A DNA stretch of 64,000 bases from Patellaria atrata CBS 101060 (taxonomy: Eukaryota): positions 1,359,623 to 1,423,622 of the forward strand of contig MU006095.1 of the NCBI GenBank assembly GCA_010093705.1, read 5' to 3'. Below, piece after piece: positions 17,407 to 36,280 of the stretch. The notes beneath the pieces are model-generated. The model saw only the letters and a program-made list of their open reading frames with translations. It did no database searches and was not told the DNA's origin. The position numbers and the translations under genes are program-made. How positions within the stretch are numbered: the stretch's first letter is position 1; every line of letters begins with the position of its first letter.

Positions 17407-20400
17407 CTATATCCCTAAACCCCCCTTCTCCAACCGTCTGAATAATTGTAAGAATCCTTCTACCATCGTGTAAGGTCCTTCATCGAGTCTCAATCGACCA
17501 TCATCCTGGCCTACATCCAACGCATTGTACTTTGTTTCCTCCGATTCTTCAGTATCGCCGACACTGTATGGTTGAAGCCAGTTCCAGACACCCTTAGCAC
17601 TGGCCGCTCCACCGATTATGGGAAGTCGAATGGTAGCACTATCGGAATCGGGCTTGAGATCGGAACGTTGAATTTCCAGCCAGGTGGAGGGAGTTAGGGG
17701 CTTTTCCTCATCGTATGGATGTGGGATGTCGCGTGTGATTAGCATGGGGCCTAAAGTGAAGAATGCGGCTAAGGAATTTGTCAGTATTGGACGATATTTG
17801 ACTGCTCGATGTTGGATCAGCCACTCACATATTTTATACAGCGCCTTCTGGACAGTCCACGCAGACAGCTTCAGCTCAGTCACTGGGAGTATTGGCGTGT
17901 ACACATGGAGAGGAGTATATGGATCAACTATCATAGTTTTCACGAGGAACTTTGAAGCATGCGTAGCCTCAAAACTGTTGCCCTTCAGCGGACCTAGGGG
18001 ATCAATGTAGTATGGACTCAGAGTCGGAAAAACATCAGGTTCAATTAATTGGCGTGGATCTCCTACAACCGGCGATGGCGGTGGAAGAATAGGCTCTCCT
18101 GTAAGAGTACCTGCAGTAAAGTACGTGTGGAGTTTGGTCCAATTCGTTGAGCCGGTTGTGCTATTATCGGTGTCGAAGTAGCCCACTACACCATCGAACG
18201 GCCGTTCAGCATCGCCGATCTTGATTGGAAATTTGTATCCGTAAAGAATATCGGCATCCGAAATAGTATTGTTCAATGTTGGAGGTAAGGTAGTCTGGGA
18301 GCTCAAAGGCTCAGTTGCAAGTTCAAGGCTAAACCCGACATTTACTAAGGCTAACGGCTTCCCAATAATTGCAGTTGCAGATGCCGCATACTCCGGTGGT
18401 GCGAAGGGCATAGTCTCTACAGCCTGTGTGACCATGTTGTAGAAAGACCTCAGATAGACACCGCCATCGGACCCAGTCAGGGTTGTGATTAGTTGGTCAA
18501 GCTGCGGCGAAATATCCGCGGTCCCTGGAGTAGGGGGGTCGAAGGGTAACCACTTTGCGGATGCAATTGTGTCAGTTGGGCCTCCTAGTGTAAGTTCTAC
18601 GTAGAAGCTACCCTCACTTGTAAAGAATTGTAACCCCTGGTTGGCATAATTGATGATTATCCAGCCCCATATCGGTTGCTCATAATCTGAAACTGTTCGC
18701 CATCCCACGAATTCATTGGCATTGGTCAAACTAATCTCTTTCACCAGAAATGAGGCATTGAGTCGAGAGTTCTGGTTGATTGCAGGTGGAAGCTGGATAT
18801 AGGGGCAAAGAGGGTAAGCTCCCGGGAGTTGAGGATCGGCGAGTGTTAGGGGAGTAACCGTGTTTAGTAACGTTGTCCCTGGAACAAATGTTGGACAAAC
18901 CTGATCACCTAGGCAGGGGTATATGGTCTCGGGATCATCCGAAGGGATTCGCAATGGAGGTTGAGCGGGTATAGCACTAATTGCCTGTCCGAACTTGTCT
19001 ATCATGTTCAACTTGGTGAAACGAAGCTGACCATGTGTGGCACCTTTGAATGGAGAACTAGTCGCAGTAGAGAAGTCTTCCAGGGTACCGTAAGGTGTCG
19101 CTGCTGTTTGATCACGTATCAACATTAAGTCTTCGCGGCTGATTCCGATATCTACACCCGCGAGAACAGCGGCTTCAAGTGGAACTGGACGAGGGTTTCC
19201 AGGCACAGTAAAGTTTGGAGGAACATGGGAACCCTCCTTCAGAGTGAGTAGATTGGTTGTCAATCCATCCAACTCGCCAGATATAAAATCGAGGGTTCCG
19301 ACTGCTTTTATAAAAGCATCTCTTTGTTCTACAGTCTCGAGCTCAGGTGGAAGATCCGTTCCAGAAACACTGAGGACTTGTGCAAGTATGGCCTGAAGGT
19401 TAAAGACTGGTTGTGGAAGGACAAGAATACGTCCGGAAACGGTACGTACGTCTTCGGTGCTCTCCAGATCATTGTAGAGAGGCTCTTTTACCATGTACCG
19501 AACTTGAGAGTGGTTGTTGCCAATTGGAGAGCTAACCAGTTCCACAGACCACTTTTCTATGGGTATGTGATAGTAAATGGCCTCCCACTCAAGAAATAAG
19601 GGACACCATGGTTGTTTTACCCACGATTTGAAACCTAGGATGCCGCCATGATCTTGCGTGGTTACAGCCTCTCCAACAAGAACTTTTATCGCAGTGTCTA
19701 AACCTGGATCTCCTGTCGAAGCCAGTCGTACAACAGGAGGTTGATCTCTGAACTGGAAATAATAAGGACTTTGCGAGAGTACTCTAATATGTAATTTGCC
19801 CAGATACTCCGTTGGCCAACCTGAATCTATACCTGCGATACACACGGTCGGGTCTTTCCTATGGAAGAAAGCTGGACGCGCAATTTTTCGAGCTTTTAAC
19901 CTTGGAAACGCGACAGGACGCACAGCTCTCACAATATTGCTGACTTGTGCTTGGAGACCAGTATCCGGAGCCCAGATCTGTTGCGTTAGAGACTTAATAA
20001 TCTCTCTAAATTTGACAACACCATCCTTGTATTTCATCAGTCTTTCCTGTTGCTTTCCATTCGGGTCTGATATAAAGTTCCACCAGACGGAAAATAAAGA
20101 CCATTGCATGTGTTTCAGTTTTCGTTCTGCAGCATCTATCTGAGCTTGGAGATCGTTGACTTTCCTCAGATACTGGGTTTCAGAATAGCCTGACTCATCA
20201 GGCTTGCTGCTGGGTGTCAGAGCTGGTTTTCCACGTTCCGCTTTTTCATCGTATTGCCATGCAACACCTCCAGCTTCACGCTGAAAGTTATGAGCGTCAA
20301 TTATATCTGAAGCTTTTACACGGCCATCATATCCATCTTCCATAGCGTAAAGAAGCTCACTGAGATTAAGAATATCCGCGGCAAGCTCACTGGATCCACT

Positions 20401-21600
20401 CCCAAGTATGACATCCGAATTGGCCTTATGCGCTTGAAGAAAGGTTAAGACGGAATCTAGAGCTGTTGTGCCCACGGATATTGGCTCCATGGTTATATTT
20501 GCTGTGAATAGCTTCGCATACTCATCGGCCGGAGTAAAAGGTTTAAGATTTCGATTCCAGGGGACATTGTATACAGTACCATGGCATGCTAACCTCGACC
20601 ACGTCCGGTCGAACCTACCGTTTTTCTCAATCCAATCAGGGGAAGTCTCTAAGAACAGTGCCCTTAGCCGCTCTTTAAAACTCCCTTTGAGACCGTCTCT
20701 TCCGACGGGATCATCGCTCAGGTTTGAATGCCACCCTACAACGGTATAATCGCAAGTAGCTTTGGTGTACTTCGATACCCTTCCAGAAATATTGACGAAT
20801 TGTAAATTATCGACCATTGAGAGAACATTGGGGTTGTGGGCGGAGTTGTCCGCAAACAGAATGTTCCCTGAATTCATAGTCGTTAACGGAATTCTTGGGA
20901 CAGTATTCCCCTTCTCTTCCCATGACGAAGCGGGAATCTTTGCACCAATATAATATTTCGTTTGATTATTCAAAACATCAGGGGAAGATTCGTCACCATC
21001 TTTGTACATAACATATGGGCTTACATCAACCTCGAGATCAACATCAGGACCCAGTTCATCAAGTGTCCATAGACGGTCGCTTTCGACCACCCATGCTTGA
21101 GTCCTTCCGAGGGCTATAGCATTTCCCGGTAGGGCATCTCGGATCGACCTTACAACTAGCCAGCGGTTTGGTATCATTCGAAACGTTGGTTCCGGGCTGA
21201 TGTTTTCCTTAGTCGGAAGCTCATCCGTCCCAGAAGCTCCTCCAGTGGCAGCTCGATAGAGCCGTGGCAAGCTCCAGTGAATATACACGCCTAATCTTCG
21301 TTCCTTTGAGCGACCAGTTGAGGCTTGATCAGTGCTTCCAGGAGAGGAACTGAGAGTAGTTGCACTTTGGTCTTCGACTGCAGTCACACGGGAATTGACT
21401 GTTGCAGGTTGAGTTCTACTCAAGTCTACGTACGGAAGGATATCATGTTTGATTTCCGAACTGTTCAATCGCAGGCCACGATAGTCTGGTTGAGTGATAG
21501 GCGCAATCCGAGAGCCGCCTTCGTCACAGACTTTCTCGTTCAATATGAACGCTTCGACATTGATCGGAGCGCAGAAGATATTGGTATCACCCATAGACAT
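17407..21600 (-). CDS. Large uncharacterised protein 'A' (~1377 aa) of the DUF6603-associated cluster
   Basis: Long ORF with first ATG at 21600 (MSMGDTNIF). Probable in-frame 60-nt intron 17828-17769 (GTGAGT..TACTGAC..TAG). Conserved-looking blocks GVYIHWSLP, IPNRWLVVR, YTVVGWH, QPWCPLFLEWE, MIDKFGQ, PIWGWIIINY, IIGKPLALV, FPIKIGD..DGVVGYF, MVEGFLQL. No signal peptide. Confidence 0.9.
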   Translation of the reverse strand: MSMGDTNIFCAPINVEAFILNEKVCDEGGSRIAPITQPDYRGLRLNSSEIKHDILPYVDLSRTQPATVNSRVTAVEDQSATTLSSSPGSTDQASTGRSKERRLGVYIHWSLPRLYRAATGGASGTDELPTKENISPEPTFRMIPNRWLVVRSIRDALPGNAIALGRTQAWVVESDRLWTLDELGPDVDLEVDVSPYVMYKDGDESSPDVLNNQTKYYIGAKIPASSWEEKGNTVPRIPLTTMNSGNILFADNSAHNPNVLSMVDNLQFVNISGRVSKYTKATCDYTVVGWHSNLSDDPVGRDGLKGSFKERLRALFLETSPDWIEKNGRFDRTWSRLACHGTVYNVPWNRNLKPFTPADEYAKLFTANITMEPISVGTTALDSVLTFLQAHKANSDVILGSGSSELAADILNLSELLYAMEDGYDGRVKASDIIDAHNFQREAGGVAWQYDEKAERGKPALTPSSKPDESGYSETQYLRKVNDLQAQIDAAERKLKHMQWSLFSVWWNFISDPNGKQQERLMKYKDGVVKFREIIKSLTQQIWAPDTGLQAQVSNIVRAVRPVAFPRLKARKIARPAFFHRKDPTVCIAGIDSGWPTEYLGKLHIRVLSQSPYYFQFRDQPPVVRLASTGDPGLDTAIKVLVGEAVTTQDHGGILGFKSWVKQPWCPLFLEWEAIYYHIPIEKWSVELVSSPIGNNHSQVRYMVKEPLYNDLESTEDVRTVSGRILVLPQPVFNLQAILAQVLSVSGTDLPPELETVEQRDAFIKAVGTLDFISGELDGLTTNLLTLKEGSHVPPNFTVPGNPRPVPLEAAVLAGVDIGISREDLMLIRDQTAATPYGTLEDFSTATSSPFKGATHGQLRFTKLNMIDKFGQAISAIPAQPPLRIPSDDPETIYPCLGDQVCPTFVPGTTLLNTVTPLTLADPQLPGAYPLCPYIQLPPAINQNSRLNASFLVKEISLTNANEFVGWRTVSDYEQPIWGWIIINYANQGLQFFTSEGSFYVELTLGGPTDTIASAKWLPFDPPTPGTADISPQLDQLITTLTGSDGGVYLRSFYNMVTQAVETMPFAPPEYAASATAIIGKPLALVNVGFSLELATEPLSSQTTLPPTLNNTISDADILYGYKFPIKIGDAERPFDGVVGYFDTDNSTTGSTNWTKLHTYFTAGTLTGEPILPPPSPVVGDPRQLIEPDVFPTLSPYYIDPLGPLKGNSFEATHASKFLVKTMIVDPYTPLHVYTPILPVTELKLSAWTVQKALYKICEWLIQHRAVKYRPILTNSLAAFFTLGPMLITRDIPHPYDEEKPLTPSTWLEIQRSDLKPDSDSATIRLPIIGGAASAKGVWNWLQPYSVGDTEESEETKYNALDVGQDDGRLRLDEGPYTMVEGFLQLFRRLEKGGLGI

Positions 21601-22066
21601 GTTTACTGCCCGTGATCTCTCCTTCAAATCTCGTATGTATATGAAAGTACAGGGAGAACGTTGGGCTCAAAAGCTCGCTCACCCAAGGAACCGTCTACCG
21701 TATGCCACGCTTGATAGGGCATAGCGGGCTTGCAACAAGCACTCCGATATTCATCAAAACCATCTTATCATGCCTCCAGATTTGTGTCAGATCGGATGAA
21801 AGTTGTGGAGAATTTGGCTTGCATCTTGATCTGGCTCAGCCCGATTTTCGCTTATTCTGGCGATGGTGGCCCAAGCTTTATTTCAGCTTCAAGCCCCTTT
21901 TCTTAGCTCTCAATCCAGCTTCGACGACCTCGACAAAACTTGCCCTTGATGAGAGGTATCAATCATTATCCTATGCTGGAAGAAATCAGGACTTTCGATA
22001 TGTTTTGTCAACCATTATCAAGCTCTGTAACGTCTGAAGAGACAGAACTACTCTTTCTGGGTCAAT
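21601..22066. promoter_or_regulatory. Putative bidirectional promoter (protein A / tyrosinase)
   Basis: 466 bp between divergent ATGs; shares motifs with 28441-29002. Confidence 0.6.
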
Positions 22067-24739
22067 ATGGGACCATCCGCCAAAGCAGCGAACATTGCTC
22101 GGCAGCATATACAGGAAGGAGTGGTAGCTGGAATTTTGAACAACGGCAAGAAGGGTTACCCACGCTTGGAGATTGATGACTTCTGTCAAGACTATGCCCG
22201 TCTCAATTTGTATCTTCTGGCAATGTCCGCCATTCAAGATCCAAACAATGACATTAAGGATCTGTGGAGCTGGTTTCAGATTCAAGGTATTCATGGGTAT
22301 GATTTATGATCGTTTCTTCCGAGAGGTTGTTGACTTGATATCAGAGTACCTTGGGCGGACTGGGGTGGAATAGGTCCTGAGGCTCTGTATAAGGATATCA
22401 AGAGCAGAGGTCATCAAGTAGATATTACCTCGATTGACGGACAAGACCCAAGAGAGGGTGATAGAGAGGTTGGCTATTGCACACACGGAACTATCCTGTT
22501 CCCCAGTTGGCACAGGGGATATGCAGCAATGATTGAACAGGCCATTCAAGCAAAGATGGTGGAAATAGCGAGTACATTCAAACGGAAAGGACCCAACGAT
22601 CTTGCTTCAAGGTCCAGATCCGCTGCAATCCAATTCAGACAGCCGTATGCATCATCATCCACTTCGACGCCGACTATTTACTGATACCTCTAGATATTGG
22701 GACCCATTCCGAGCTCGTGCTGGTCAAGCTTGGAATAATACTCTGCAACCCGGTCTCTCCTTGATTCTTGCCGTCAAAAGGGTCAAAGTTACCCGACCTG
22801 ATCTGACAGAAGCCGAAATTGATAACCCGTTGTACAGTTATAAATTTCCGGGGAGAGATAAGTTCATAAACGCTAGACCAGCATTACTACCTCGAATTGA
22901 AGGCAACGAGTGGGCTGGCCTCGACATCAGAACTCGAGAAACCCATAGGAGACCTCCAGACCCTAATAACCCGATAAGCTCAAATAATGTTGCTATCCAG
23001 CGACGTCTCGAGGGTTCCATTGGGGATAGTGCAGGTACTCTCCAGTGGCGCGATCTCATGGAAAAGGCATATCATACATTGATGCTCGACTCACCCCAGC
23101 AGGTTCCGAATGCAAAGAACTTATACCATCGTTTTGCGACTAACGACTGGGAAAGGGCCGAGCAGATTGCATTGGGTGTCACTCAGCTTAGTCCAAATGG
23201 TGATCCACATTCTTTAGAAGCATGGCATAATGAAAGTGAGTCTTGCTAACTGCACCCGTATCCTCGAAATTATTATACTAATTTGGTTTCTCAGTGCATG
23301 GAATAATTGGCGGACAGGGAGGAACCATGGGTAACCCAGATACTGCTGGGCATGATCCCATATTCATCTTTCATCATGCGAATGTCGATCGGCATTACGC
23401 CCTTTGGCAAGCTCGATATCCGAAGGAATGGTGGGGGGCTGCTCAAGCAGCTGCTACAGAAAACAATTACACCCAGTTGCTTGGAACGTATCAGACTCCA
23501 CAAACTCCTCTCATACCATTCAGGAGAAAACCACCCACTATTGGCCAAAATCACGCCCAGAAAAACACGTTTTGGAACACCGATGACATACGAGATCACT
23601 CTACATTAGGATATCAGTACAATCCCATACCAACAGACATGAGTCCTAATGAGAGAAGTCGCGAAGCAACTCGCGATATTAACATTAATTTAGCTTGGTA
23701 CAAAGCAAGACCGACTGCTTTGGACGGCCCCTTCGTCGACCCAGTTCCCATGGATAAAGTTAAAGCATTCCTCAGCTGGCCTCCCCGGATCGACGACCGA
23801 ACCGATCAGAACCCCCTCTGGACACCCATTACCGCGACTCCCGGCCCTTTGCACCCCAACCGACTTCCTATCCGAAGGCAACTTCGAGCTGAAGGCTCTG
23901 TTGGAGATTCCTCAGTACTGCTTCCTGTCCCTGCGCCAGAATTCGCAAAACTCCCAGACTCCGACTTCGAGTACATTTTCCCACCTTCAACTATCTCTTC
24001 AGCCGGCTACGTGAAACTCTGGTTCTTCAACTTCCGCTGCCTCCGCCACACCCTCGGCACTTCCTTCACAGTGTACGTCTTCCTTGGTGACTTCCCCACC
24101 TCTTCCTCTGAGTGGTCCAAGGCGCCTAATCTTGTAATGCCACTATTCCAAATTGTCCGTTTCAACCCCGCTGCGTTCGAAGCTACCCCCGATTCAGGAC
24201 CCGCAACGCAAAGTGGAGCAATCTCCCCGGAGGACGGCACACTAAAGAAGTTAGTCCCGAAAGTTGAGAAGGAGAAGCATAGTACCTGCGGCAATTGTGC
24301 GAGGCAGCAAGAAGATCGAAGGATGTTAGCTGATACAGCGCCCTTGACTCAATCCCTGTTGAAGTATATCCGACTTGGCGAGGCTGTCCCGGATGCCGAT
24401 GACATCGAACAAGGCGACCTACCGGGTGTCGCAGTAAGGAGCTTGGAAAGCGATGATGTGGTACCCTTTTTGAAACGAAACCTACATTGGCGGGTGGTTC
24501 GGGTATGTAAAACTAATCCGCGATCACGGAAAACCGCCATATGCTGACTGATTGTACTTTAGTCCGACGGCGAGGAGATCCCTCGCGACCAGCTAGAAGA
24601 GTTCAAGGTCTTTGTTACGCAGCGGGGCTTGACTCTACCGAAGAACAACTTCGACGTGCCGATTTACGATCCTGCAGAGTTGAAGTGGGACGTCACGGAT
24701 AATAGGCCGGGAGGGTTAGCCTCGGGGGAACATCCATAG
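22067..24739 (+). CDS. Tyrosinase (type-3 dicopper oxidase), ~818 aa, with C-terminal shielding domain; no signal peptide
   Basis: Five exons: 22067-22296, 22345-22644, 22694-23235, 23295-24502, 24563-24739, all GT-AG and frame-consistent. CuA ligands GIHG..GYCTHGTILFPSWHR; QFRQPYWD; CuB ligands SLEAWHNEMHGIIGG..DPIFIFHHANVDR; C-terminal CGNC (CxxC) and LKRNLHWRV. Confidence 0.93.
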
Positions 24740-25050
24740 ACACAAACAACTGTGCATGATGCAGTCTCGCAAATAGAAACTCTTAATACAATTTCCTTCG
24801 AACGCGACCTCTACTATTATATTATCCCTAAGAGCTAGAATAGGGGTTAAAATAGCCCTCTTTCATCTACACAGTTATCAAAGAGAAAATAGTTGACAAT
24901 CTTGTGGAAACCGAGCCATACATTTGATCTAGACCCTAACTTCTCGTAATTATGGAGAATTGGTGTTTTCTTTCAACGTATTTACCCTGAGTGTCGTTCA
25001 AATGAAATATCATCAAGTAGTCCCACGTTGTCCAGCCACTCAAAGGCCAA

Positions 25051-28000
25051 TCACACTTCAACGCCCTTCAAATCCTTATCCCCTCCCTCCCTTTTCAACA
25101 CCACAACATCCGAAAACACCTCCCCAGTAGTCCCATCAGCCTGTAAATACGTCTCGATGACCCTGACCTTACACATTCCCCTCTGTTGCCCACCCAACCC
25201 AAAAATATTAACACTCACGGGCGTCCCCACAGGCGCGATCACGCACTCTTTGAGCACCAAACTGCAATCTCCAGTCACAGTATCCGGCAAACTTGAGATC
25301 TTTCCCAAGGCCGTCGTTCGCGGTGTTATTACGACTCTAACCTCGTCGTGCGCGTGAGACACCGAAGTCACGAGTCGCCGATTCGAGAGCATATCAGCGC
25401 CCGCACCGGCATAGACACCTTTCAGTAGAGGTTCGAGGGTAGAATCGCCTTCTATGTCTGCGGGAATGACGACTGTGATGCTAGAAAGTGCTAGATTGAT
25501 CGGTGGAGCAGCGGTGTTGCGTTTGATGGAGAATATCAGGCTGGGCAGGAACTTCGTTGCTGTAGGAATGTAGTCCTGGGCTGAGTAGACCGGATTGACG
25601 GCGTCAGTGAGATCTGGGAAAGGTGGGGCGCCACGATAGTCTGGATGAATTACAATACGGTATTGAGAACTTCCCCCGGGAATGAGGGCTTGTGCAGTCA
25701 CTTCGCGGCGTGTCTGGGGTACAGTTACTGGTCTACTCGATCGTGCAGATCTATGTCGCAGTTGATGAACCCGTGCTTCAGCGTGAAGTGTAGGAATAGT
25801 TTGATTTGGGCCACTTCTTGTCAGTCGTTCATTATCTTGTTCTGATACACGAAGAGGTCGTGGTGCAAGATCCTCCATATCTTTTCCAGCCCATAATTGT
25901 CTATCTGGTTTCAAGAAATACACTGGCCCTGTATCTCTAGGTGGGAAGATTTGTAGTTGGTAGCTTGAATCATTTAATTCGAGAGCTAGAACTGTAGAGT
26001 CTAACCCTTGCGCTAGAAATTCTTGTGTCGGAGTTTGGAATAGAAGCGCCGGGCGTAAGTCAACTATCATTTTCGGAACGTCAATACATCGAGTATTTGC
26101 ATCGTACCATGTCGCTATTTTATCAGGGGTCGGCATTTGAGCCGCCGGAATAGGGGGCCAGGATCCACTAGAGTCCGCTGGCACAGGAGCTCCCTTGGTG
26201 TAGAGTCTTCTTAGCTCGAACGATGCGATGTATCGCTGCTGATGCGGCGGTTGTATGAATTTGATCTCGAACAGGTCCTCTGGCAAACAGTCCAACAAAG
26301 CAAAAACTGTTCGCTCGTCTAATTTTGTAAGTCGAATAAGTGGATCGTGGTTGTTGTCTGGAATTAAAACCGGTGCACCATTTGGTGCTTGCCTTCTACG
26401 TCGAGCTACGATACGAATGTCAGGCATCACTCGTATGAGTTCAGAACGCAGGATAAACCCGTAACGAGGAACTGGTGGCTTCATCCCGGCAGACGGAATC
26501 TCAGTCCGTAAATAGACGTTGTATGCTTCTTTGATGCGGCGTCGGACTCTATCATCAACAGGCTCAAAATGGTTTGCAGTCGAAAGAGCACCGTCTATGA
26601 AGCAGTCCAACCAGCAGTCGTCGATGTAGAAGAATCTTAATGCTTCGGACGGTAGGTAGCTAGGGTCCGGAATAAGATAATGAGCCGGAATATCTGCTAG
26701 AAACAACTTGTCACTAATCCAGTTATGAATAATCTCCCAGTCCGAGTTATTCGCAGAGCCTAGCGTATAGTCGCTGTACAGTTCATCACCTGAAGCTGTT
26801 AGGGCTCGGAATACACGAGTGATCGATCTTTCGAACACCGGCAACACTTTTGGGTGAATTAGTGATGGCCCTACCTTTTCCGACGTCGGTAACAGGTTCC
26901 GAGCAGGCAAATCATGTCCATTGGTCGTGTCTCTAACTTCTTTGAATCTTGTTGGTATCTCCCGAAGAACTCTTTGAGGTGACAGCACACCATTTATCAC
27001 TATCCTCGTCTCACTACTAGCCCACCTATGAACCAAAGAGCGAAATCGGAGCAATGCGGAATTAAAAACCGTATCAGAAACAGCCATTAGCTTCCCTAAT
27101 TGCCATGCGGATGAATAGGTCAGATCCATAACTCCAAGGTCTTTGTCCAAAACTTGGTACTCTTTCCCTGTATTAGATGAACCTGGCCAGTCATCAGCAA
27201 CGGAGGGTTTCCAAGATGTTGGAGCAGGTGTCAAAGGCCCCCGAGAGAAGGCTAAAGTCTCTTCACCAGTCGCTGCTCTCCATCTATGAATTGTGTAGCC
27301 CAGTGACAATCGCTCATGCAGTAACTTGCTTGACACAGCTGAGTTGGGATCTTCCCCTATTGTGCCTTGAAGTAACCCCAGAGATTCATCACCTATTCTC
27401 AACATTTGCTTCGTCGCAGCCAAGTTTGTCATAATATCTTTGAAGTTGATGGGATTTGGAGGTAGAGAAAGATATGTCCAACTGTACAGGGAACACAAGC
27501 CTATTCGACCATCTCCTGTAATCTGGGTTTTATCCATTTGTTCTATATTGATGAGATGAACAACTTGAGTACGGGGGACAGTGTTATTACGAGGCCCAGT
27601 CATATGGCTCACGCATATAGAAAACAAGCCATTCTGCTGGGTTCCGGCATCTGGGAATCCCATCGTATTCATCTCCCTCACATGGCACATAAAGAAAAAC
27701 TTGTAAGGATCCTTAAGGATTGCTGCCGCTTGACTTCTTTTGGGGAAGATTACAGTTGTGTTCTCAGTAGACTCGGTGAGGGATTTCCATGCAGGATTGT
27801 TCTCGGGTTGATCAAACGCTGCTTCAAAAGTAGGTCTTGATGTGATCTTTGTAAGATAATCACCAGCAGTCATCGGAAAAGCTCCTGAAGACGTTGCCGC
27901 AGCTGCGGACGCGGGAGATATCCCTAAGGATGTAACTTCCGCTGGACTAACTTTAAGGTCTTCGGGGTCGAACACAAGAAGAGCAAACCATGGGCCTCGG

Positions 28001-28440
28001 ATACCCCTATCGGCTATTGCAAAGCTCGAGGCGGAAGGGCCTATCCGATCCCATGGAATATGGGGGTCATTGAAGACGATGTGAGGTAGTATTAACCCTT
28101 CGTCAGCACCTCCATCGGGTGGATAATGAGAATTGATTGTGTCAGGGTCGAGTGAGAACTGTGGAGCGACGACGTCGAATTTCTGTAGTAGAACAGGAGT
28201 AGTTGCTGGAGGGGGAAAGCTAACCCCCGTTGTAGAATCGTAATTGAAGATTTCTAGTTTGCCTTCATCTCCTGGGATACTGGTCTTGATAGATTGTTTC
28301 ACCTCGATGCCATAGTTTCCCGGGGGAAGCCGTGGCCGATATAAAGGATACAATCTGATATATCCCGGTTTGAGGTCTGATTCATTCACTCCATTGATAG
28401 CTCTTTCAACGTTTGCTCTTACAAGACTCCTAGGTGCCAT
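25051..28440 (-). CDS. Large uncharacterised protein 'C' (1129 aa) of the DUF6603-associated cluster
   Basis: Uninterrupted 1129-aa ORF from ATG. Blocks LPHIVFNDPHIPWDR, PWFALLVFDPEDL, CHVRE, VVHLINIE, LCSLYSWTY, SRGPLTP, DLTYSSAWQLGKLMA, PAHYLIPDPSYLPSEALRFFYID..WLDCFIDGALS, GFILRSELI. Confidence 0.9.
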   Translation of the reverse strand: MAPRSLVRANVERAINGVNESDLKPGYIRLYPLYRPRLPPGNYGIEVKQSIKTSIPGDEGKLEIFNYDSTTGVSFPPPATTPVLLQKFDVVAPQFSLDPDTINSHYPPDGGADEGLILPHIVFNDPHIPWDRIGPSASSFAIADRGIRGPWFALLVFDPEDLKVSPAEVTSLGISPASAAAATSSGAFPMTAGDYLTKITSRPTFEAAFDQPENNPAWKSLTESTENTTVIFPKRSQAAAILKDPYKFFFMCHVREMNTMGFPDAGTQQNGLFSICVSHMTGPRNNTVPRTQVVHLINIEQMDKTQITGDGRIGLCSLYSWTYLSLPPNPINFKDIMTNLAATKQMLRIGDESLGLLQGTIGEDPNSAVSSKLLHERLSLGYTIHRWRAATGEETLAFSRGPLTPAPTSWKPSVADDWPGSSNTGKEYQVLDKDLGVMDLTYSSAWQLGKLMAVSDTVFNSALLRFRSLVHRWASSETRIVINGVLSPQRVLREIPTRFKEVRDTTNGHDLPARNLLPTSEKVGPSLIHPKVLPVFERSITRVFRALTASGDELYSDYTLGSANNSDWEIIHNWISDKLFLADIPAHYLIPDPSYLPSEALRFFYIDDCWLDCFIDGALSTANHFEPVDDRVRRRIKEAYNVYLRTEIPSAGMKPPVPRYGFILRSELIRVMPDIRIVARRRRQAPNGAPVLIPDNNHDPLIRLTKLDERTVFALLDCLPEDLFEIKFIQPPHQQRYIASFELRRLYTKGAPVPADSSGSWPPIPAAQMPTPDKIATWYDANTRCIDVPKMIVDLRPALLFQTPTQEFLAQGLDSTVLALELNDSSYQLQIFPPRDTGPVYFLKPDRQLWAGKDMEDLAPRPLRVSEQDNERLTRSGPNQTIPTLHAEARVHQLRHRSARSSRPVTVPQTRREVTAQALIPGGSSQYRIVIHPDYRGAPPFPDLTDAVNPVYSAQDYIPTATKFLPSLIFSIKRNTAAPPINLALSSITVVIPADIEGDSTLEPLLKGVYAGAGADMLSNRRLVTSVSHAHDEVRVVITPRTTALGKISSLPDTVTGDCSLVLKECVIAPVGTPVSVNIFGLGGQQRGMCKVRVIETYLQADGTTGEVFSDVVVLKREGGDKDLKGVEV

Positions 28441-29002
28441 CTTGTTCCCATATGTTTTTGGCGAAGTAGAACTGCCGTCCCGTGCGATATTTACATGTCA
28501 TCGCCCGAAGGAAGGGAGTTGTAGTCATTACTGTCCTCCACAGGACATTGATAGGTTCGGTACATCTTGCCGTTGTAGAATTTCAGGCTATGCAAGATAA
28601 TCGTAGCGAAGTGTAGCTGAAAGTCGTGGCTGTTGGAGGGGGTAAGCCAGAAATTCAGAATCCCTTAGGTCACTAAGAGTTGGCCAATCAATCTTTTTCG
28701 GTGTTTCAGCTTCATGCATCGAGACGCCACATACTTTAGACAGCATAAGAACGGAGTAATACAGAAATCGTATCTCAAAGAATGGAAACTCGTGATACTT
28801 GGCGTAGATCCTTGGTGGAAGCCATGCTCCTTCGCCGTCTCTCTTGATCAAGGTAGGAGATGTGACGCAAAGGATGAAATTCTCTCAATCGGAGAGTATC
28901 ACGATGGAATAACATCAATATTGACAGCTCTAATCTGGGAGCATCATAACTGTGATCGAGCCTGTACTCCTCCTTCATTGTTTTGAATCATTCATCATCG
29001 CA
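28441..29002. promoter_or_regulatory. Putative bidirectional promoter (protein C / DUF6603 protein)
   Basis: 562 bp between divergent ATGs; contains the inverted pair AGCTGAAA (28615-28622) / TTTCAGCT (28704-28711). Confidence 0.6.
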
Positions 29003-32000
29003 ATGGCGTCTTCTGGTGACCACAGCTTTGAGAACCCTCCCACAAACACACCAACAGGTCAACCAAGTCTGATAGTCGAAATCATACCATTTCCCCTACC
29101 CCTAGATGAATTCATAGTGAATTCCAACCCCAATACTTCTAGTTCGAGCTGGAACAAAGTCTATGAAGCGCTAGGAGTAACATTCAGTAACTCTTCTGGT
29201 TCGCTCAATGCGAAAGTCACTAGCTTTTGGGACACAACATTCTCGTCTACTGAAAACGAGAATAAATTTGGCCCGAGCAATGGTTCTGCGACCGCTGTTG
29301 GTGGTGATGAAAATCCATCTTCTGCTGTATTTGGCATGATTCTGCCGACATCTGGAGCCCTGACGACACCATTGAAGTTCTCCGAAGTCAGAGAAAAGTT
29401 TGGGATAAACAATTCAAATGCAAACTCCTCCCTAATATCGTTACTAGATGCAGTGGACAGGGCTGGCGCGTTGATGATCACACTCGATCAAGATCCAAAG
29501 GCTCGTAACGCGTTATGGATCGTTCCCAAAGATGCCTACAAAGTCATCATGAATATGGTCTTTACGATTGCGAACGAGGAGGCAATAAGGGGATTAGAGA
29601 GCTATATCAAAGCATCGTACGGTATCACTATCAGTATTTCGGCTAGAAACTGTCGGTTTGAATTTCAGCAGACAAGTTTCTTCATTCCGAACCTCCCCAA
29701 AAGACCAGGGTTAGGAACGAATCCAGAGTTCATCAGGTCATCTAAATATCGTATGGTGGTCAGCTTCCAGGTGGCTTCCTTCGAAGTCTCGATCATTTGT
29801 ACCCCGGATGATATGGAGTTCTATTTTTCAGATCCACCAAACGCGCTTGTTACGGGAAATATCATCGATAGGTTGAATAGTGCTATAGTAAATGGTTCTG
29901 GAATGAGTTCTAATGGTTTTCCCGATTCATCTGCGGCAAATCCGTTCAGTAAGATCCTTAAAGATGTCAACCTCTGGTACATAAACATTGGAAGAGAAGT
30001 GATAGGACATACTGCTGCGACCCCTACACAGCCATCCATCCCAGAATACGGTTCCTTGTATTGGTCTATCAAGCTATTCGGCAAGTGGGAAGTCGGAGCA
30101 AGTAGTGAAACGATTCTCCTAGGGTTGAGCTATGATTCTCGAGATCAAACATTTTTCGGACAATTACTCTTCCAAGCCGATCTACCAACAGATATGGTAA
30201 AACGCCAACACGGTTTTTTCTGGGTCACTGATGATATACCGTTTAGTGTTCGAGAAAAGCTCAGGACTAGAGGGATACCACGTAGCCTCAACCTACTTGG
30301 ACTCTTCAGTCAATCTATCAAAGCTCCAAAAGGTGTACCGCTTGAGTTGACACAGGGTTACATCGCATTTAGGAGAGGTGACAATGGTTCTGGCACCGAA
30401 CTTAGCTTTGGAACCAATATCAAGTCTCAGATTGCAGTCGAGGAGAATGAAGCCGCTGCACCTTTTGGATTTTCGTGGGATGAAATTGCAGCCCAAGTTG
30501 CAATACAAGACACCGGAACTACGTCAACTACAGACATTGTTATATCGACGAGTATCAACCTACGAGGGGGTGCGGATATCCCTCCCGCTACTTTGAGTGT
30601 TGACGTAGAGTATTCCACAGGTGGGTTTTGGGTCCTTCATGGCCGTCTTGAAAACCTTTCACTCGCATTATTAGCCAAATTCTTCCACAAAAATAATCGA
30701 GAGATGGCCAAGGGTCTTCTGGGAACTCTCCGTTTACGTTATGCGGATGTGATATACACTTTTAACTCCTCTGGTGAAACTGCCGGAGAGCCTTCATCGT
30801 TCGTAATTACTGGAGCCTTAGTATTAGGAGGACTTGAGTTGGACTTGACATATGAATTTGCGTCCGCACTTATCGACTCCAGCCAATCTGCCGCGAAAAT
30901 TGCCCAGGAAAGCGGCCAACTTCCTAGTGATAGAGAAACATTACGTCCCTCCGGAGGCGAATCCCAATGGTCATTCGAAGCAGATCTGGGTGCTTCCACA
31001 ACTGGAGCAACGCTGGGTACAATCATAGGCTCTTTCTCGCCAAACGCTATATCCAGTCTACCTACCTTCGTTACAAATATCGATGTTGCACCTGCAGCTG
31101 GAGGGAAAGCCCCGATAAAGCTCAAGCTTGCCTCAGTGGGTAACACGACAGCCGGTAGCGGTGTAAGTCCTGGAAGTGGCCTCATACTCATATTCGTAGT
31201 CTCGATGCTTGATACTACTTTTACCTATATCTCTCTTAATCAACGTGGGGTGACAAAGCGAGTACTTCAGGTTAACGCTGATCAAATCCCCATCGTAAGT
31301 GATATACCGCTAGTCAAGGTACTACCTCCGCCGTTTGATGAGCTGCGGTATCTATGGGTTGATACTCCCACCCCAGTGGGCCTCTCCAAAGATGAAATCA
31401 ACCAGATCAACGCTGAGCTCGAGAAAGGCAAGATGGCAAAGCTTGCATATAAAGAGACAAGTAAAGACAGCGGCGCTTCTGCAGGTCCAGTATTGCAGAC
31501 TGGTCATCATTTCATGGTTTTGCAAGGCGGTAAAGTAATCCTCGATCACGTTTTTGGTAAACCGAATCCGGACTCTCCTGATCCAACCAATCCAGGAGGG
31601 TCGGGTAACGCTCAGGATCCACCGCCAACAAAGGGTGCTATTGACAAGCAGACACCGTTCCTTACAATAGATGGTATCCAGTTACAGTTCAAAGCACCGG
31701 TTCTTCACATCGAAATATCGGCAACGATAGTACTCGGGCCTATTAATTTCTCCGTAATAGGGTTCGATATCGGGTTCAATCTTGAGAATATCAAATTGAA
31801 CAATCTTGCAGCTCTCCTTTCTCCTGGTCTAATCTCTGTCGGGCTTCATGGGTTAGCCGTCAAAGTAGACAAACCGCCGGTCACCATGTCTGGGGTATTC
31901 ATTCATGAGGATATCAATGCCGGTGGGGTAGTTGCTGAGAGCTATCGTGGAGGTATTGCCTTCGGATTCCAGGCCTGGCAATTTATGGCAGTTGGCGAGT

Positions 32001-34251
32001 ACAGGATTGTTACACAGCCGCAAAACTATAAATCGGTGTTTGTATATGCAAAGCTTGACGGACCATTGATCACACTAGCCTTTGCAACTGTGAGCGGAGT
32101 TCGTGTTGGATTCGGATACAATAGCATAGTCCGATCACCTACTCTGCTTGAATTGCCACAGTTTCCTTTCCTGAATAGTTCTGCGGATAAAGAGGCGGGG
32201 AACGATCCCATGAAGATTCTAACTGCTATGATGGGCGATGGTAATAATGCTCCGTGGGTATCAGCGAAGGAAGATTCATATTGGGTTGCTGCAGTAAGTC
32301 GTTAGGGGGATATAGGCGTGACTTAAGACTAATCAGCATAGGGTGTTACCTTGACCGCATTTGGCCTCTTAGCAGTCACCGCGGTACTAATGGTAGGTTT
32401 CCGTGATGGTGGAGCTGTTATATCCGTCTTCGCCGATGGCATTGCACAAATGCCACCGGGCGTTAGTGCAAATGCTTGTCTGGTTTATATAGAAATTGGT
32501 ATGCTCGCGGAGCTCAACACGATCGATGGCTATTTCACTGTGCAGGCTGCTCTAGCTCCAACTTCGCATTTGATAGTAGCATCATGTCGACTGACGGGCG
32601 GGTTTGCTTTGACGAATTGGTTTCGACCAAGTCAGCATTCTGGAGACTTCGTACTGACTGTTGGAGGCGTGAGTACAAGTATGAACAAAACCAAGAATTT
32701 TTACTAAGCATCCACTCCAGTATCATAGGGCTTACAAACCACCTCCGTGGTATCCAGTTGTTCCTCGTCTCGGAGTCTCCTTCACACTTGAAGACATGAT
32801 CAACGTCACCGGAGTTGCATACTTTGCGATCACTCCAAAATGTGTTATGGGAGGAGGTGCTCTCCATCTAGGTCTTGATGTTGGACCGGTATCTGCTTGG
32901 CTAGACGTCATCCTCGATGTCTTCATCCAGTTCGATCCATTTATGTACATGGCCGATCTTGCGGTCTCCGTAGGCTGCGCCATCACGATAAAGGTGTGGT
33001 TCGTTCATATCAGAATCAGCGTCAGCGTTGGTGCTGCGCTCCACATCGAGGGACCAGATCCGTTCCGCGGCGTAAGTACCAATTCTCACATACGTGATAT
33101 ATACTTACCCTATTCAGTCGGCGAATGTCGAATTCTACCTCTTCTCGTTTACGGTCCATTTTGGTAGAAGTCCTACCATAGAAGTTGAAAAGAAATCCCT
33201 ACCACAATTCTATGAAATGGTGAAGTCGCCCGGGCCTTCGACTCCTGCACCCTCAGACTCCTCCGTGCGCGACGAGCAGCAAGCGTTGGTTAAGTTCACT
33301 GTCTCCACAGGTTTGATCCCGCCGGCTCAAACTGCACCACGTTCAGATTCCGGCCAGTTCCCTAGCACGGGAGCAACTGCAACTTGGCTTGTCAAATCCG
33401 GTACGTTTAGTTGCAACATCGGCTTCGAATTTGCCATCTCTTCAGCCCATATACGCCGCAGTAACGACGTAAACACAACTGTGGTAGAACTATTCCCCAA
33501 GGAGGGCGCATCAGCTATTAAGCCCTTCTGGTCAAAGCCAATGCAGCTGACCTCCTCCAATCCAATATCTTCATCCGTTGAAGTGAAAGTTTGGATGCTC
33601 AACCTCGCCGATCCGGAGAAGAACACCCCGATCGATGCAATGCAGGGTGAACTCGTCACCAAAGATGTTCCCGCGGCATTGTGGGGTGCCTACGACAGGG
33701 CTGAAGATCCAATCAGGACGGGAAACCCATCAGCAACTACAGCAGCTCTATCAGACCCCAGAGAGCCGACAATGAACTTGTGCATGGCCATCAATCTTTG
33801 GACGCTTCCAGGAGTTTTGTTGCCGAGCCCCATAACTGATATTGATGCCTCCGCCGCATTCCGTAGATATCTTGATCCAACGTGGTTCAATGCGTCCCCG
33901 GTCGAGCAAAAAATCTTAAGATCTAGCGGCGTCTTGTATTCCACCGAGTCGCCTTCGGAAAGATGGGCCCATGTGGTAACTGATTGGCAAAACTTTGCCG
34001 CTACTGGAAGCCCTGTTCTTGAGAGTTCAACGCTGACTGAGGGCGAAGTTCAAGGTAGTGGCTTGTTGAAGTCAGCAGCGAAGTATTTGGGTTGGGATAA
34101 GCCGTCTCCCAAGGGAGCAGGTAGTGATAATGGTAATAGTACTGACGGAAGAAAGAAGTGGATGTTGAATGCCAAACCTGCTAAACGAATGATGAAGAGT
34201 TTGCCAACTAGCTATCCGGTATTATTCAGATATAGTGCTGTAACTGCTTAG
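29003..34251 (+). CDS. DUF6603-type giant beta-rich protein 'D' (~1700 aa)
   Basis: Exons 29003-32293, 32342-32668, 32721-33071 and 33118-34251, with three phase-0 GT-AG introns joining the separate ORFs. The spliced product contains [71 protein letters not shown] and VPAALWG, which I recognise as the DUF6603 pattern (from memory, not a search). Confidence 0.88.
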
Positions 34252-36106: not shown

Positions 36107-36280
36107 CGTGTTAAGGGATAGGTGGATAGGTTACAGTACAGGCAATGTAAGATCATCATTCAGCTCGGAGATACCTCTAGCATTATCAAATAGATCTCAA
36201 GCAGTCGATAAATCGTATACTCCAATTCAAAACCCTCAAGTGCAAATCTCCCCCTTAGTACAGTGCATCAAAAATTCTGT

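What the first reader, a model, noticed from the sequence alone, without database searches (positions are those of the whole stretch)
17407..34251. Four-gene DUF6603-centred cluster: three giant unknown proteins plus a tyrosinase, a candidate undescribed multi-component system
Seen: ~17 kb holding only proteins A (~1377 aa), tyrosinase (~818 aa), C (1129 aa) and D (~1700 aa), arranged A<- ->TYR and C<- ->D between housekeeping genes RPB2 and MCR1. All four frames are intact and none has a signal peptide. Recalled, unverified: DUF6603 proteins have no assigned function, occur patchily in bacteria and filamentous fungi, and tend to sit next to two large hypothetical genes with motifs like those in A (GVxxHWxLP, PNRWLV) and C (LPHxxF..PWxR, AWQLGxLxA). 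Inference: A, C and D form a conserved tripartite machine, analogous in organisation (not proven homology) to ABC/Tc toxin complexes or a macromolecular delivery or defence apparatus. The tyrosinase would be its cargo or accessory enzyme.
Basis: partly seen in the sequence, partly recalled or inferred. Interest (0 to 1): 0.93.

Follow-up and report, generated by a model that had tools for sequence, protein, structure and literature searches.

The report
Conserved three-giant-protein DUF6603 gene module
Three very large proteins of unknown function, encoded side by side in this fungus, are the same three proteins that sit together in an uncharacterised gene cassette of many bacteria, so they probably build one unknown protein machine; the tyrosinase gene among them looks like a bystander.

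Summary
The four genes are real. The window matches Patellaria atrata. D carries Pfam DUF6603, the tyrosinase is intact, and A and C match no curated family.

- In 80 bacterial loci fetched through A homologues, fungal C hit just upstream in 80 of 80 and D in 77 of 80. The order is D-C-A.
- In 34 fungal-like metagenome loci fetched through C, 7 hold A, C and D, 6 hold C and A, and 2 hold C and D. Gene order is shuffled.

The tyrosinase hit none of the 80 metagenome loci, so it is not a member.

Other findings:
- The fourth bacterial core gene (F) was not detected in the fungal loci.
- Many fungal clusters instead carry a small four-pass membrane protein.
- The DUF6603 part is predicted as about 25 long beta strands. 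Fungal C has an unmatched core plus an Ig/cohesin-like end domain.
- A bacterial D-C pair passed the binding test, 0.74 against 0.00 for the controls.

Function is unknown. I favour a cross-kingdom antagonism or cell-death complex.

Earlier notes of this scan had already met the bacterial cassette on other DNA.

The parts
17407..21600 (-). Gene A. 1377 aa after removal of a 20-residue in-frame intron. Fungal member of the A family of the D-C-A cassette.
   Evidence: ORF. P0001 is 98% identical over 100% of the query. No Pfam, NCBIfam, PADLOC or PHROGs family. Bacterial relatives are 22-26% identical over about 83% of the length. tblastn of fungal A hits 80 of 80 bacterial loci.
21601..22066 (.). 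Intergenic region of 466 bases between the divergent starts of A and the tyrosinase gene.
   Evidence: Coordinates. That it acts as a shared promoter is inference only.
22067..24547 (+). Tyrosinase gene, four exons, 774 aa in my model. It is lodged inside the cluster but is not a conserved member.
   Evidence: Pfam PF00264 and PF18132. Gene model and histidine motifs. Its four exon pieces gave 0 hits in 80 metagenome loci, 34 of them fungal-like.
25051..28440 (-). Gene C. 1129 aa, one exon. Fungal member of the C family.
   Evidence: ORF. 177 relatives. 5768 representative proteins at E<=1e-3. Model has pLDDT 88.1 and pTM 0.72. Fungal C hits 80 of 80 bacterial loci just upstream of A.
28225..28341 (-). 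Codons about 34-72 of C: the conserved N-terminal hairpin (PxLxxGxYxI). This is the counterpart of the stretch predicted to dock on D in the bacterial pair. Coordinates are approximate.
   Evidence: Interface residues 14-52 of the L025 C protein. Offset of 20 residues taken from invariant P16/G21/Y23 against P36/G41/Y43. The mapping onto the fungal protein is inference.
25081..25692 (-). Codons 917-1120 of C: a fungus-specific C-terminal Ig/cohesin-like beta-sandwich behind a disordered linker (residues 856-915).
   Evidence: low pLDDT in 856-915. VIA matches: YcnI 7me6_A, Z 9.5, rmsd 2.7 over 118 residues; cohesin 2vo8_A, Z 9.2, rmsd 3.5 over 131. Foldseek 2vo8, E 3.6e-4. Bacterial C proteins are about 730-790 aa and match fungal residues about 36-750.
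28441..29002 (.). Intergenic region of 562 bases between the divergent starts of C and D.
   Evidence: Coordinates. That it acts as a shared promoter is inference only.
29003..34251 (+). Gene D. Four exons (29003-32293, 32342-32668, 32721-33071, 33118-34251), 1700 aa. The giant DUF6603 protein.
   Evidence: Splice model with GT..AG borders that keep the frame and the Pfam alignment continuous. Pfam match. Fungal relatives.
31643..33071 (+). DUF6603 domain of D (residues about 881-1320, interrupted by two introns). Predicted in a bacterial homologue as a meander of about 25 long antiparallel strands.
   Evidence: Pfam profile positions 2-417 of 502 across three exon pieces. Model of L025 D residues 780-1539: pLDDT 83.4, pTM 0.71, strand list given. 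Fold searches.
33118..33650 (+). Start of D exon 4: the end of the sheet and the small beta domain behind it. This is the counterpart of the bacterial surface predicted to receive C. Coordinates are approximate.
   Evidence: Interface residues 496-658 of the 760-residue bacterial piece, equal to L025 D residues 1275-1437. Fungal D aligns to bacterial D up to about residue 1540. The mapping is inference.

Best explanation
A, C and D are the fungal versions of three core subunits of an uncharacterised cassette that bacteria encode as an operon-like row, D-C-A-F. The row is often followed by variable binding proteins.

The set most likely entered an ancestor of filamentous ascomycetes from bacteria as a unit. 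It has been kept as a gene cluster although order and orientation were shuffled. This is inferred, because the trees are unrooted.

The three proteins most likely assemble into one large leaderless complex:
- The N-terminal hairpin of C adds a strand to the small beta domain that follows the DUF6603 sheet of D. This is predicted for a bacterial pair and transferred by homology.
- A joins the two. This rests on linkage alone.
- The sheet of about 25 strands in D is the working surface, acting as a shell, belt or pore. This is inferred from shape only.

My best guess for the role is a conflict device: antagonism against other cells, or regulated cell death. In fungi the bacterial F subunit and fibre or lectin partners would be replaced by an Ig/cohesin-like domain fused to C and, in many clusters, by a four-pass membrane protein.

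The tyrosinase is an ordinary fungal tyrosinase that happens to lie in this copy of the cluster.
For: Linkage in bacteria:
- In 80 genome loci fetched by A alone, fungal C hits 80 of 80 immediately upstream on the same strand. Fungal D hits 77 of 80 upstream of that. The 3 misses have under 2 kb of upstream DNA.
- In 46 bacterial metagenome loci fetched by C, D was found in 33 and A in 26. Many of these contigs are short.

Linkage in fungi:
- Of 34 fungal-like loci, 7 hold A, C and D, 6 hold C and A, and 2 hold C and D, in varied order.
- Neighbouring locus tags in Squamulea: A 004484, C 004486, D 004487.

One fungal side in both trees:
- A tree: 27 fungal against 36 bacterial rows.
- C tree: 32 fungal against 35 bacterial rows.
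- In each, a single branch with support 100 separates the two groups.

Binding:
- L025 D residues 780-1539 with L025 C residues 1-235 scored 0.74 in three runs. The best of 3 controls scored 0.00.
- That mark was reached by 51 of 78 solved complexes and 2 of 108 mismatched pairs.
- The runs agree in at least 37% of contacts. The partner's pLDDT is at least 31.
- The same N-terminal motif of C follows DUF6603 genes in a more distant cassette type: hhalign probability 87.7%, E 3.4e-6 over 78 columns.

Shape:
- D model pLDDT 83.4; C model pLDDT 88.1.

Conflict flavour:
- Variable neighbours carry YadA-head with S74 chaperone fibres, a phage tail collar, Laminin_G_3 with ricin lectin, and BNR or other propellers. 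Some carry a RIP, EEP, PhoD-like, M64 or M91-like domain.
- Distribution is patchy: 6 of 301 genomes.
- Several cassettes can occur in one genome: three loci each from S. albireticuli and S. hesseae, and four DUF6603 matches in G011.

Tyrosinase: 0 of 80 loci.
Against: - There are no expression, localisation or protein data.
Its place in the complex rests on linkage alone.
- The binding test used a bacterial pair, without alignments. The partner's own fold was uncertain (pLDDT 31-33).
- No enzyme, toxin or pore family is detectable in A, C or D.
- The conflict role is inferred only from neighbours and distribution. Many bacterial neighbours are plain housekeeping genes.
- The D fold matches are generic: Foldseek TM 0.1-0.2, and VIA Z 10-13.5 at rmsd 12-16 A. 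Whether the sheet closes into a barrel is unknown.
- F was not detected in the fungal loci, so the fungal complex may differ or be incomplete.
- The A family was not found in 5 other DUF6603-positive genomes.
- The direction of transfer is not shown, because the trees are unrooted.
Confidence: 0.55

Rival explanations
1. Released or surface particle. The complex is a toxin-complex-like or umbrella-like antagonistic particle that leaves the producer by lysis or a non-classical route. It binds a target cell through variable tips and uses the D sheet as a cocoon or pore for delivery. This is one concrete form of the best explanation, listed separately because it makes its own predictions.
For: - Fibre, collar, lectin and propeller genes lie next to bacterial cassettes.
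- A RIP-domain gene lies directly upstream of D in L020, and an M91-like gene lies in L001.
- Among the weak Foldseek rows for D are Yen-Tc, Rhs and teneurin shells.
- Fungal C carries a cohesin/Ig-like module on a flexible linker.
Against: - A, C and D have no signal peptide. No lysis or secretion gene was seen as a constant neighbour.
- There are no RHS/YD or TcA-type Pfam families.
- The fungal clusters carry no lectin or fibre genes. Their extra gene is an integral membrane protein.
Confidence: 0.25
2. Intracellular immune or cell-death module. The complex senses invasion or non-self inside the producer and kills or arrests the cell by inserting the D sheet into a membrane. This would resemble other bacterial immune modules that filamentous fungi share (that comparison is recalled, not tested).
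For: - The proteins are leaderless.
- Distribution is patchy and multi-copy.
- Fungi and bacteria share the whole set.
- A four-pass membrane protein lies in 11 of 34 fungal-like loci.
- VIA places the D sheet nearest to membrane barrels.
Against: - No PADLOC model matches.
- No sensor-type domains (NTPase, repeats, nuclease) appear in A, C or D.
- Fibre and lectin neighbours in bacteria fit an outward-facing role better.
Confidence: 0.2
3. Housekeeping-type envelope or lipid-handling machine. The giant amphipathic sheet of D holds lipid or a polymer, as in ApoB-type belts or LptD/TamB-type transport. C and A would act as scaffold.
For: - The best Foldseek row is the ApoB100 beta belt (9e9r, E 8e-5). 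LptD, MtrB and SprA also appear in the lists.
- A membrane protein partner occurs in fungal clusters.
Against: - TM-scores are 0.1-0.2.
- The system is rare within a phylum (6 of 301) and often multi-copy, which is unlike core envelope machinery.
- It occurs in organisms with and without an outer membrane, and in fungi. The cell-envelope types are from my own knowledge.
Confidence: 0.1
4. First reader's version. The tyrosinase is the cargo or accessory enzyme of the A/C/D machine.
For: - It lies between A and C and shares a 466-base divergent region with A.
- Bacterial cassettes often have a variable enzyme gene next to D: EEP, PhoD-like, M64, MBL-like or RIP. A swappable enzyme slot is therefore conceivable.
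Against: - The tyrosinase pieces hit 0 of 80 metagenome loci, including the 15 fungal-like loci that hold two or three of A, C and D.
- It has the usual two-domain make-up of fungal tyrosinases.
- The slot between cluster genes in other fungal-like loci is taken by the four-pass membrane protein.
Confidence: 0.05

Closest known systems
Uncharacterised bacterial DUF6603 cassette (D-C-A-F plus variable binders). Known only from Pfam PF20248 and from earlier unchecked notes of this scan (e1-2137033, e1-4275958, e1-5036815, e1-3829069).
   Same: D, C and A are homologous along most of their length. tblastn E-values run down to 1e-68 for D, 7e-47 for C and 9e-57 for A. The motifs are the same. All are leaderless giant proteins.
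   Different: The fungal genes are separate transcription units in shuffled order, and D has three introns. F was not detected, and there are no fibre or lectin genes. Fungal C has an extra C-terminal beta-sandwich. Many fungal clusters add a four-pass membrane protein with no bacterial counterpart in the loci searched.
Tc (ABC) toxin complexes, e.g. the Yersinia entomophaga holotoxin (PDB 9c4k).
   Same: Several giant leaderless proteins are encoded side by side. Distribution is patchy. A very large beta-sheet structure is present. The properties of Tc toxins are recalled, apart from the PDB title.
   Different: No Pfam family is shared. The only link is one weak Foldseek row (9c4k_P, E 3.3e-4, probability 0.54, TM 0.10). 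No RHS/YD repeats and no TcA-type domains were found.
Streptomyces umbrella toxin particles (PMC11062931, PMC13274773). I saw the search listing and the first lines of the abstracts only.
   Same: These are multi-protein antagonistic particles of Streptomyces with diversified lectin tips. The bacterial DUF6603 cassettes are common in Streptomycetaceae and have variable lectin, fibre or propeller neighbours.
   Different: A, C and D match no curated Pfam family other than DUF6603. The fungal cluster has no lectin genes. The make-up of Umb proteins is recalled and was not compared here.
Very large beta barrels and belts: porins, Tom40/VDAC, MtrB, LptD, SprA and the ApoB100 beta belt.
   Same: All have a long up-and-down meander of antiparallel strands. 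VIA gives Z 10-13.5 over 230-370 aligned residues. Foldseek gives E 8e-5 to 5e-3.
   Different: Rmsd is 12-16 A and TM is 0.1-0.2. D has no signal peptide or other targeting signal that I could see. It is unknown whether the sheet closes into a barrel.

Membership tests
Pfam DUF6603 (PF20248) | Match to the family HMM above the gathering score (27 bits). | tested here: met
   D exon pieces score 141.5, 94.3 and 142.8 bits and cover profile positions 2-417 of 502.
Bacterial D-C-A-F cassette | A homologue of D with the DUF6603 sheet and the domain behind it. | tested here: met
   Fungal D residues about 880-1540 align to D in 77 of 80 bacterial loci.
Bacterial D-C-A-F cassette | A homologue of C encoded next to D. 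| tested here: met
   Fungal C residues about 36-750 hit 80 of 80 loci. In the window, C and D are divergent neighbours 562 bases apart.
Bacterial D-C-A-F cassette | A homologue of A encoded next to C. | tested here: met
   Fungal A hits 80 of 80 loci. In the window, A lies 3.4 kb from C with the tyrosinase gene between them.
Bacterial D-C-A-F cassette | A homologue of F (about 450-530 aa) after A. | tested here: not met
   F follows A in 75 of 80 bacterial loci. The F HMM (115 sequences) finds nothing in the six frames of the window at E<=10, nor in 34 fungal-like loci at E<=1. hhalign of F against the fungal C profile and against the A and D alignments (mostly bacterial rows plus a few fungal ones) gives probability under 1%. 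The rest of the genome could not be searched.
Bacterial D-C-A-F cassette | Co-directional order D then C then A. | tested here: not met
   The window has A<- and C<- ->D. Fungal-like loci show several orders and orientations.
Tc (ABC) toxin complex | TcA-type, SpvB/TcB-type and RHS/YD-repeat domains (features recalled). | tested here: not met
   A and C match no Pfam family, and D matches only DUF6603, at E<=0.01. No PDB sequence match at E<=1 for the A and C profiles or for a bacterial D.
Tc (ABC) toxin complex | Cocoon-like beta shell fold. | tested here: inconclusive
   Foldseek rows: 9c4k_P at E 3.3e-4 and TM 0.10; RhsP 8h8b at E 5.9e-3; teneurins at about 2e-3 to 9e-3. All have TM at or below 0.1.
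Outer-membrane beta-barrel proteins | Closed transmembrane barrel with an export signal. | tested here: inconclusive
   VIA gives Z up to 13.5, but at rmsd 12-16 A. I saw no N-terminal hydrophobic leader. Barrel closure could not be inspected.
Known anti-phage defence systems (PADLOC-DB 2.0) | Match to any model of the library. | tested here: not met
   0 families for fungal A, C and D and for bacterial D, C, A, F and two upstream genes.
Tyrosinase (PF00264 with C-terminal PF18132) | Family HMM matches and both copper-site histidine motifs. | tested here: met
   PF00264 at E 2.8e-8 and 1.2e-11 on two pieces; PF18132 at E 7.6e-20. The motifs ..IHG....CTHG....SWHR....WHNEMHG.. and ..FHHANVD.. 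appear in the spliced translation. The reading of these motifs is recalled.

The most novel reading that the evidence does not exclude
A, C and D are the conserved core of a protein machine of a kind not yet described, built around a single-chain giant beta shell or pore. Bacteria would use it as a targeted weapon with swappable binding tips. Filamentous fungi would have captured it whole and rewired it, with a membrane partner and a fused binding domain, for their own antagonism or programmed cell death.
Probability: 0.3. Interest if true: 0.9.

Novelty: categorically new. Interest (0 to 1): 0.8.

Why it matters
The C family alone has 5768 representative proteins at 50% clustering in 1.84 billion searched. 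Yet none of A, C or D has a name, a solved relative or a paper. The searches for 'DUF6603' and 'PF20248' each found 0 papers.

A set of three giant proteins that stays together from Streptomyces, Chitinophagaceae and Alteromonadaceae to lichen-forming and saprobic ascomycetes is a strong sign of one multi-subunit device. Its retention as a cluster in a eukaryote, where no operon forces it, argues for selection on co-inheritance or co-regulation.

If it is a conflict machine, it would add a new class beside Tc toxins, tailocins, umbrella particles and the immune modules shared by bacteria and fungi.

The predicted D-C contact gives an immediately testable handle.

Tried and rejected
**Genome and transcripts**
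- The window's own genome is not held. G, E, F or second copies elsewhere in Patellaria could not be sought.
- RNA evidence: no RNA holder is listed. The two runs found (X1, X2) are contigs that cover the whole stretch, intergenic parts included, without joints. They are probably the DNA source.

**Family and sequence searches**
- NCBIfam, PADLOC and PHROGs: no family for A, C or D, nor for the bacterial cassette proteins (bacterial D, C, A, F and two upstream genes) scanned in PADLOC and PHROGs.
- PDB by sequence: nothing at E<=1 for the A profile, the C profile or a bacterial D.
- ESM Atlas: only unnamed ascomycete clusters, and no structure search was possible.
- A against C profiles: no homology.

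**Fold searches**
- Foldseek of fungal C against viral models: 0 rows at E<=1e-3.
- Foldseek and VIA of fungal C against PDB matched only the C-terminal sandwich. The core (residues 1-850) is barely tested, and I do not claim a new fold for it.

**Loci and gene calls**
- The search for related loci with the mixed fungal and bacterial A alignment failed for lack of a conserved stretch. A bacterial-only alignment worked.
- An apparent C-A fusion in L020 is an open-frame artefact of high G+C.
- F was not detected in the fungal material.

**Other DUF6603 genomes**
- The A profile found nothing in 5 other DUF6603 genomes. hhalign of the A profile against the third gene of such a cassette gave probability 0.35%.

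**Earlier notes and papers**
- Earlier-findings look-ups by sequence and by place gave nothing.

**Complex test**
- A first design (C with the N-terminus of A) was never run because the queue was full. C-A and D-A contacts remain untested.

Full report
**Observation**

- A is one open frame on the minus strand (17407-21600). It equals NCBI protein M501DRAFT_954904 of Patellaria atrata CBS 101060 apart from a 20-residue in-frame intron. P. atrata is a dothideomycete.
- C (25051-28440, minus) is a single exon of 1129 codons.
- D needs three introns. With GT..AG borders that keep the frame it gives 1700 residues.
- The tyrosinase gives 774 residues in four exons in my model.

Pfam finds DUF6603 in D at 141.5, 94.3 and 142.8 bits on three exon pieces. 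It finds Tyrosinase plus Tyrosinase_C in the second gene, and nothing in A or C. The flanks are Rpb2 and a cytochrome b5 reductase-type oxidoreductase. A, C and D have no hydrophobic N-terminus (a crude check).

**No known family**

- A, C and D have no match in NCBIfam, PADLOC or PHROGs.
- Profile or sequence searches against PDB chains found nothing at E<=1.
- The ESM Atlas returned only unnamed ascomycete clusters.
- No paper in the library holds 'DUF6603' or 'PF20248'.

**Relatives**

- A has 73 relatives in the word-indexed search. They are mostly ascomycetes at 30-58% identity, plus actinobacterial proteins at 22-26% over about 83% of the length.
- C has 177 relatives; all named ones among the best 120 listed are ascomycetes.
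- An exhaustive profile search finds 5768 representative proteins at E<=1e-3 and 3678 at E<=1e-30.
- D exon 1 has 22 relatives.

**Linkage in bacteria**

I scanned one genome per prokaryotic species with an alignment of bacterial A proteins. It found 357 relatives, and the best 80 loci were kept with 10 kb on each side. They are mostly Streptomycetaceae. Nonomuraea, Actinomadura, Frankia, Solirubrobacteraceae, Chitinophagaceae, Alteromonadaceae and Poriferihabitaceae are also present.

tblastn with the fungal proteins found:
- A in 80 of 80 loci;
- C in 80 of 80, directly upstream on the same strand;
- D in 77 of 80, upstream of C.

The three misses are loci with less than 2 kb of upstream DNA.

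In the clean low-G+C locus L025 the row reads as follows:
- D (1539 aa, DUF6603 at E 9e-140);
- C (771 aa);
- A (1199 aa);
- F (529 aa, no Pfam);
- two fibre genes with YadA-head and S74-chaperone matches.

F follows A in 75 of 80 loci. In L018 it lies upstream of D instead.

**Linkage in fungi**

A metagenome scan with fungal C proteins returned 80 loci. I of them fungal-like, because they share the full-length fungal type of C. That label is my inference.

| Content of the locus | Loci |
|---|---|
| A, C and D within the flanks | 7 |
| C and A | 6 |
| C and D | 2 |
| C only | 19 |

Of the 19 with C only, 18 are contigs of at most 5.8 kb. Order and orientation differ from locus to locus.

Named genomes agree. 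In Squamulea the locus tags are A 004484, C 004486 and D 004487. In Pyrenodesmia they are D 008382 and C 008383. Several A, C and D hits also share a longest-contig length, which hints that they lie on one contig.

The 46 remaining loci are bacterial. D was found in 33 of them and A in 26.

**The tyrosinase**

Its four exon pieces hit none of the 80 metagenome loci at E<=1e-5. It is therefore not a conserved member of the cluster.

**What fungi lack and what they add**

- The F profile finds nothing in the window or in the fungal-like loci. It also shows no similarity to the fungal C profile or to the A and D alignments, which are mostly bacterial rows with a few fungal ones.
- Instead, 11 of 34 fungal-like loci carry a protein of about 300 residues next to C or A. 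It has four hydrophobic segments and a cysteine-bearing loop, no Pfam family, no hit in the bacterial loci and no hit in this window.
- An MBL-like protein (E) occurs in 31 of 126 bacterial loci. Its profile hits three fungal-like loci, the best at E 7e-10.

**Distribution and origin**

DUF6603 occurs in 6 of 301 genomes drawn evenly from the phylum of a Streptomyces carrier. In the five new carriers the A profile found nothing. The C profile found only its N-terminal motif, directly after the DUF6603 gene, in two of the five genomes (four loci).

In three of these five genomes the fetched loci (L164-L166) show a row of similar gene sizes: about 1150, 930-1080, 1550-1620 and 600-740 aa. hhalign confirms the C motif (probability 87.7%, E 3.4e-6 over 78 columns), but not A (probability 0.35%). 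The fungal set therefore belongs to one subtype of a wider cassette family.

FastTree trees of A and of C each put all fungal rows on one side of a single branch with support 100. The fungal A rows form two deep subclades. The trees are unrooted. Transfer from bacteria into an ancestor of Pezizomycotina is my inference. It rests on the operon form and the multi-phylum spread in bacteria.

**Structures**

Bacterial D residues 780-1539 (53-row alignment) give a model with pLDDT 83.4 and pTM 0.71. It has ten long strands, a helical insert, fifteen more strands, a small beta domain and a helical tail.
- Foldseek finds only weak rows with TM 0.1-0.2: ApoB100, MtrB, Yen-Tc, porins, LptD, SprA and teneurins.
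- VIA finds membrane barrels at Z 10-13.5, but at rmsd 12-16 A.
- I read this as a giant meander sheet with no specific relative.

Fungal C (99-row alignment) gives a model with pLDDT 88.1 and pTM 0.72.
- It has a core of about 850 residues, a disordered linker (856-915) and a C-terminal sandwich.
- Only the sandwich finds partners: YcnI at Z 9.5, cohesin at Z 9.2.
- No viral model matches.

**Binding**

Because the C N-terminal motif follows DUF6603 genes even in distant cassettes, I tested L025 D residues 780-1539 with L025 C residues 1-235.
- The score was 0.74 in three runs. The best of 3 controls scored 0.00.
- That mark was reached by 51 of 78 solved complexes and 2 of 108 mismatched pairs.
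- The runs agree in at least 37% of contacts, and the partner's pLDDT is at least 31.
- C residues 14-52 lie on residues 496-658 of the D piece, with strand-like pairing of 23-30 against 584-592.

The model supports binding; it does not show it. The partner's own fold is uncertain, and the alignments were not used.

**Reading**

Shown:
- A, C and D form a conserved, linked set shared by bacteria and ascomycetes.
- The tyrosinase is not part of that set.

Supported by prediction:
- D and C touch.

Inferred:
- A joins the complex.
- The D sheet is the working surface.
- The role is conflict.

The conflict role rests on three things. Bacterial neighbours are variable and include fibre, collar, lectin and propeller proteins, and now and then RIP, EEP, PhoD-like, M64 or M91-like proteins. 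The distribution is patchy. Some genomes carry several cassettes.

The rival readings are a released toxin particle, an intracellular death module and an envelope or lipid machine. They cannot be separated with the present data.

**Comparison and novelty**

The nearest thing is the bacterial cassette itself, which earlier notes of this scan had met on other DNA. I confirmed its core order and its variable binders independently.

Tc toxins and umbrella particles are analogies of organisation only. For the umbrella papers I saw only the search listing and the first lines of the abstracts.

No component apart from the DUF label belongs to a described family, so I rate the system as categorically new. 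Its function remains untested.

Noticed in passing
L083:8658-9833 (-), L085:19009-19896 (+), L089:8174-9112 (-), L090:7958-8929 (-), L091:4186-5148 (+), L097:7465-8373 (-), L105:19178-20136 (+): A protein of about 300 residues with four hydrophobic segments and a conserved cysteine loop lies next to C or A in 11 of 34 fungal-like loci. It has no Pfam family (one weak Claudin_2 row at E 0.005). It is absent from the window and from the bacterial loci searched.
   Followed up: partly
L031:898-2169 (+) and 30 other bacterial loci; L097:2-2422 (-), L107:592-1738 (-), L110:218-1570 (-): A metallo-beta-lactamase-like protein accompanies the cassette in 31 of 126 bacterial loci, upstream of D or further downstream. 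Its profile also hits three fungal-like clusters, the best at E 7e-10. It does not hit the window.
   Followed up: partly
L020:1517-2470 (+); L025:1961-3031 (+); L077:1253-3850 (+); L164:2197-3366 (+); L166:1670-4159 (+): The gene just upstream of D varies and is sometimes an enzyme or toxin-type protein. Examples: ribosome-inactivating protein domain (E 2.4e-8), endonuclease/exonuclease/phosphatase, peptidase M64, PhoD-like phosphatase.
   Followed up: partly
L164:3369-16023, L165:1989-17893, L166:4169-17117: A second, distant type of DUF6603 cassette has the same four-gene size pattern. Only the DUF6603 domain and the N-terminal motif of C are recognisable in it.
   Followed up: partly
window 36281-37183 (-) and 37282-38187 (-): Two open frames of about 300 codons without any Pfam family lie in the one G+C-rich stretch of the window (0.579 in 36001-38000).
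   Followed up: no
window about 17750-17810 (-), near the 3' end of gene A: The annotated intron of A is in frame and free of stops, so the unspliced frame stays open (1397 against 1377 residues). The position is approximate.
   Followed up: partly
L018:626-2413 (+): In this Solirubrobacteraceae locus the F-like gene lies upstream of D rather than after A.
   Followed up: no
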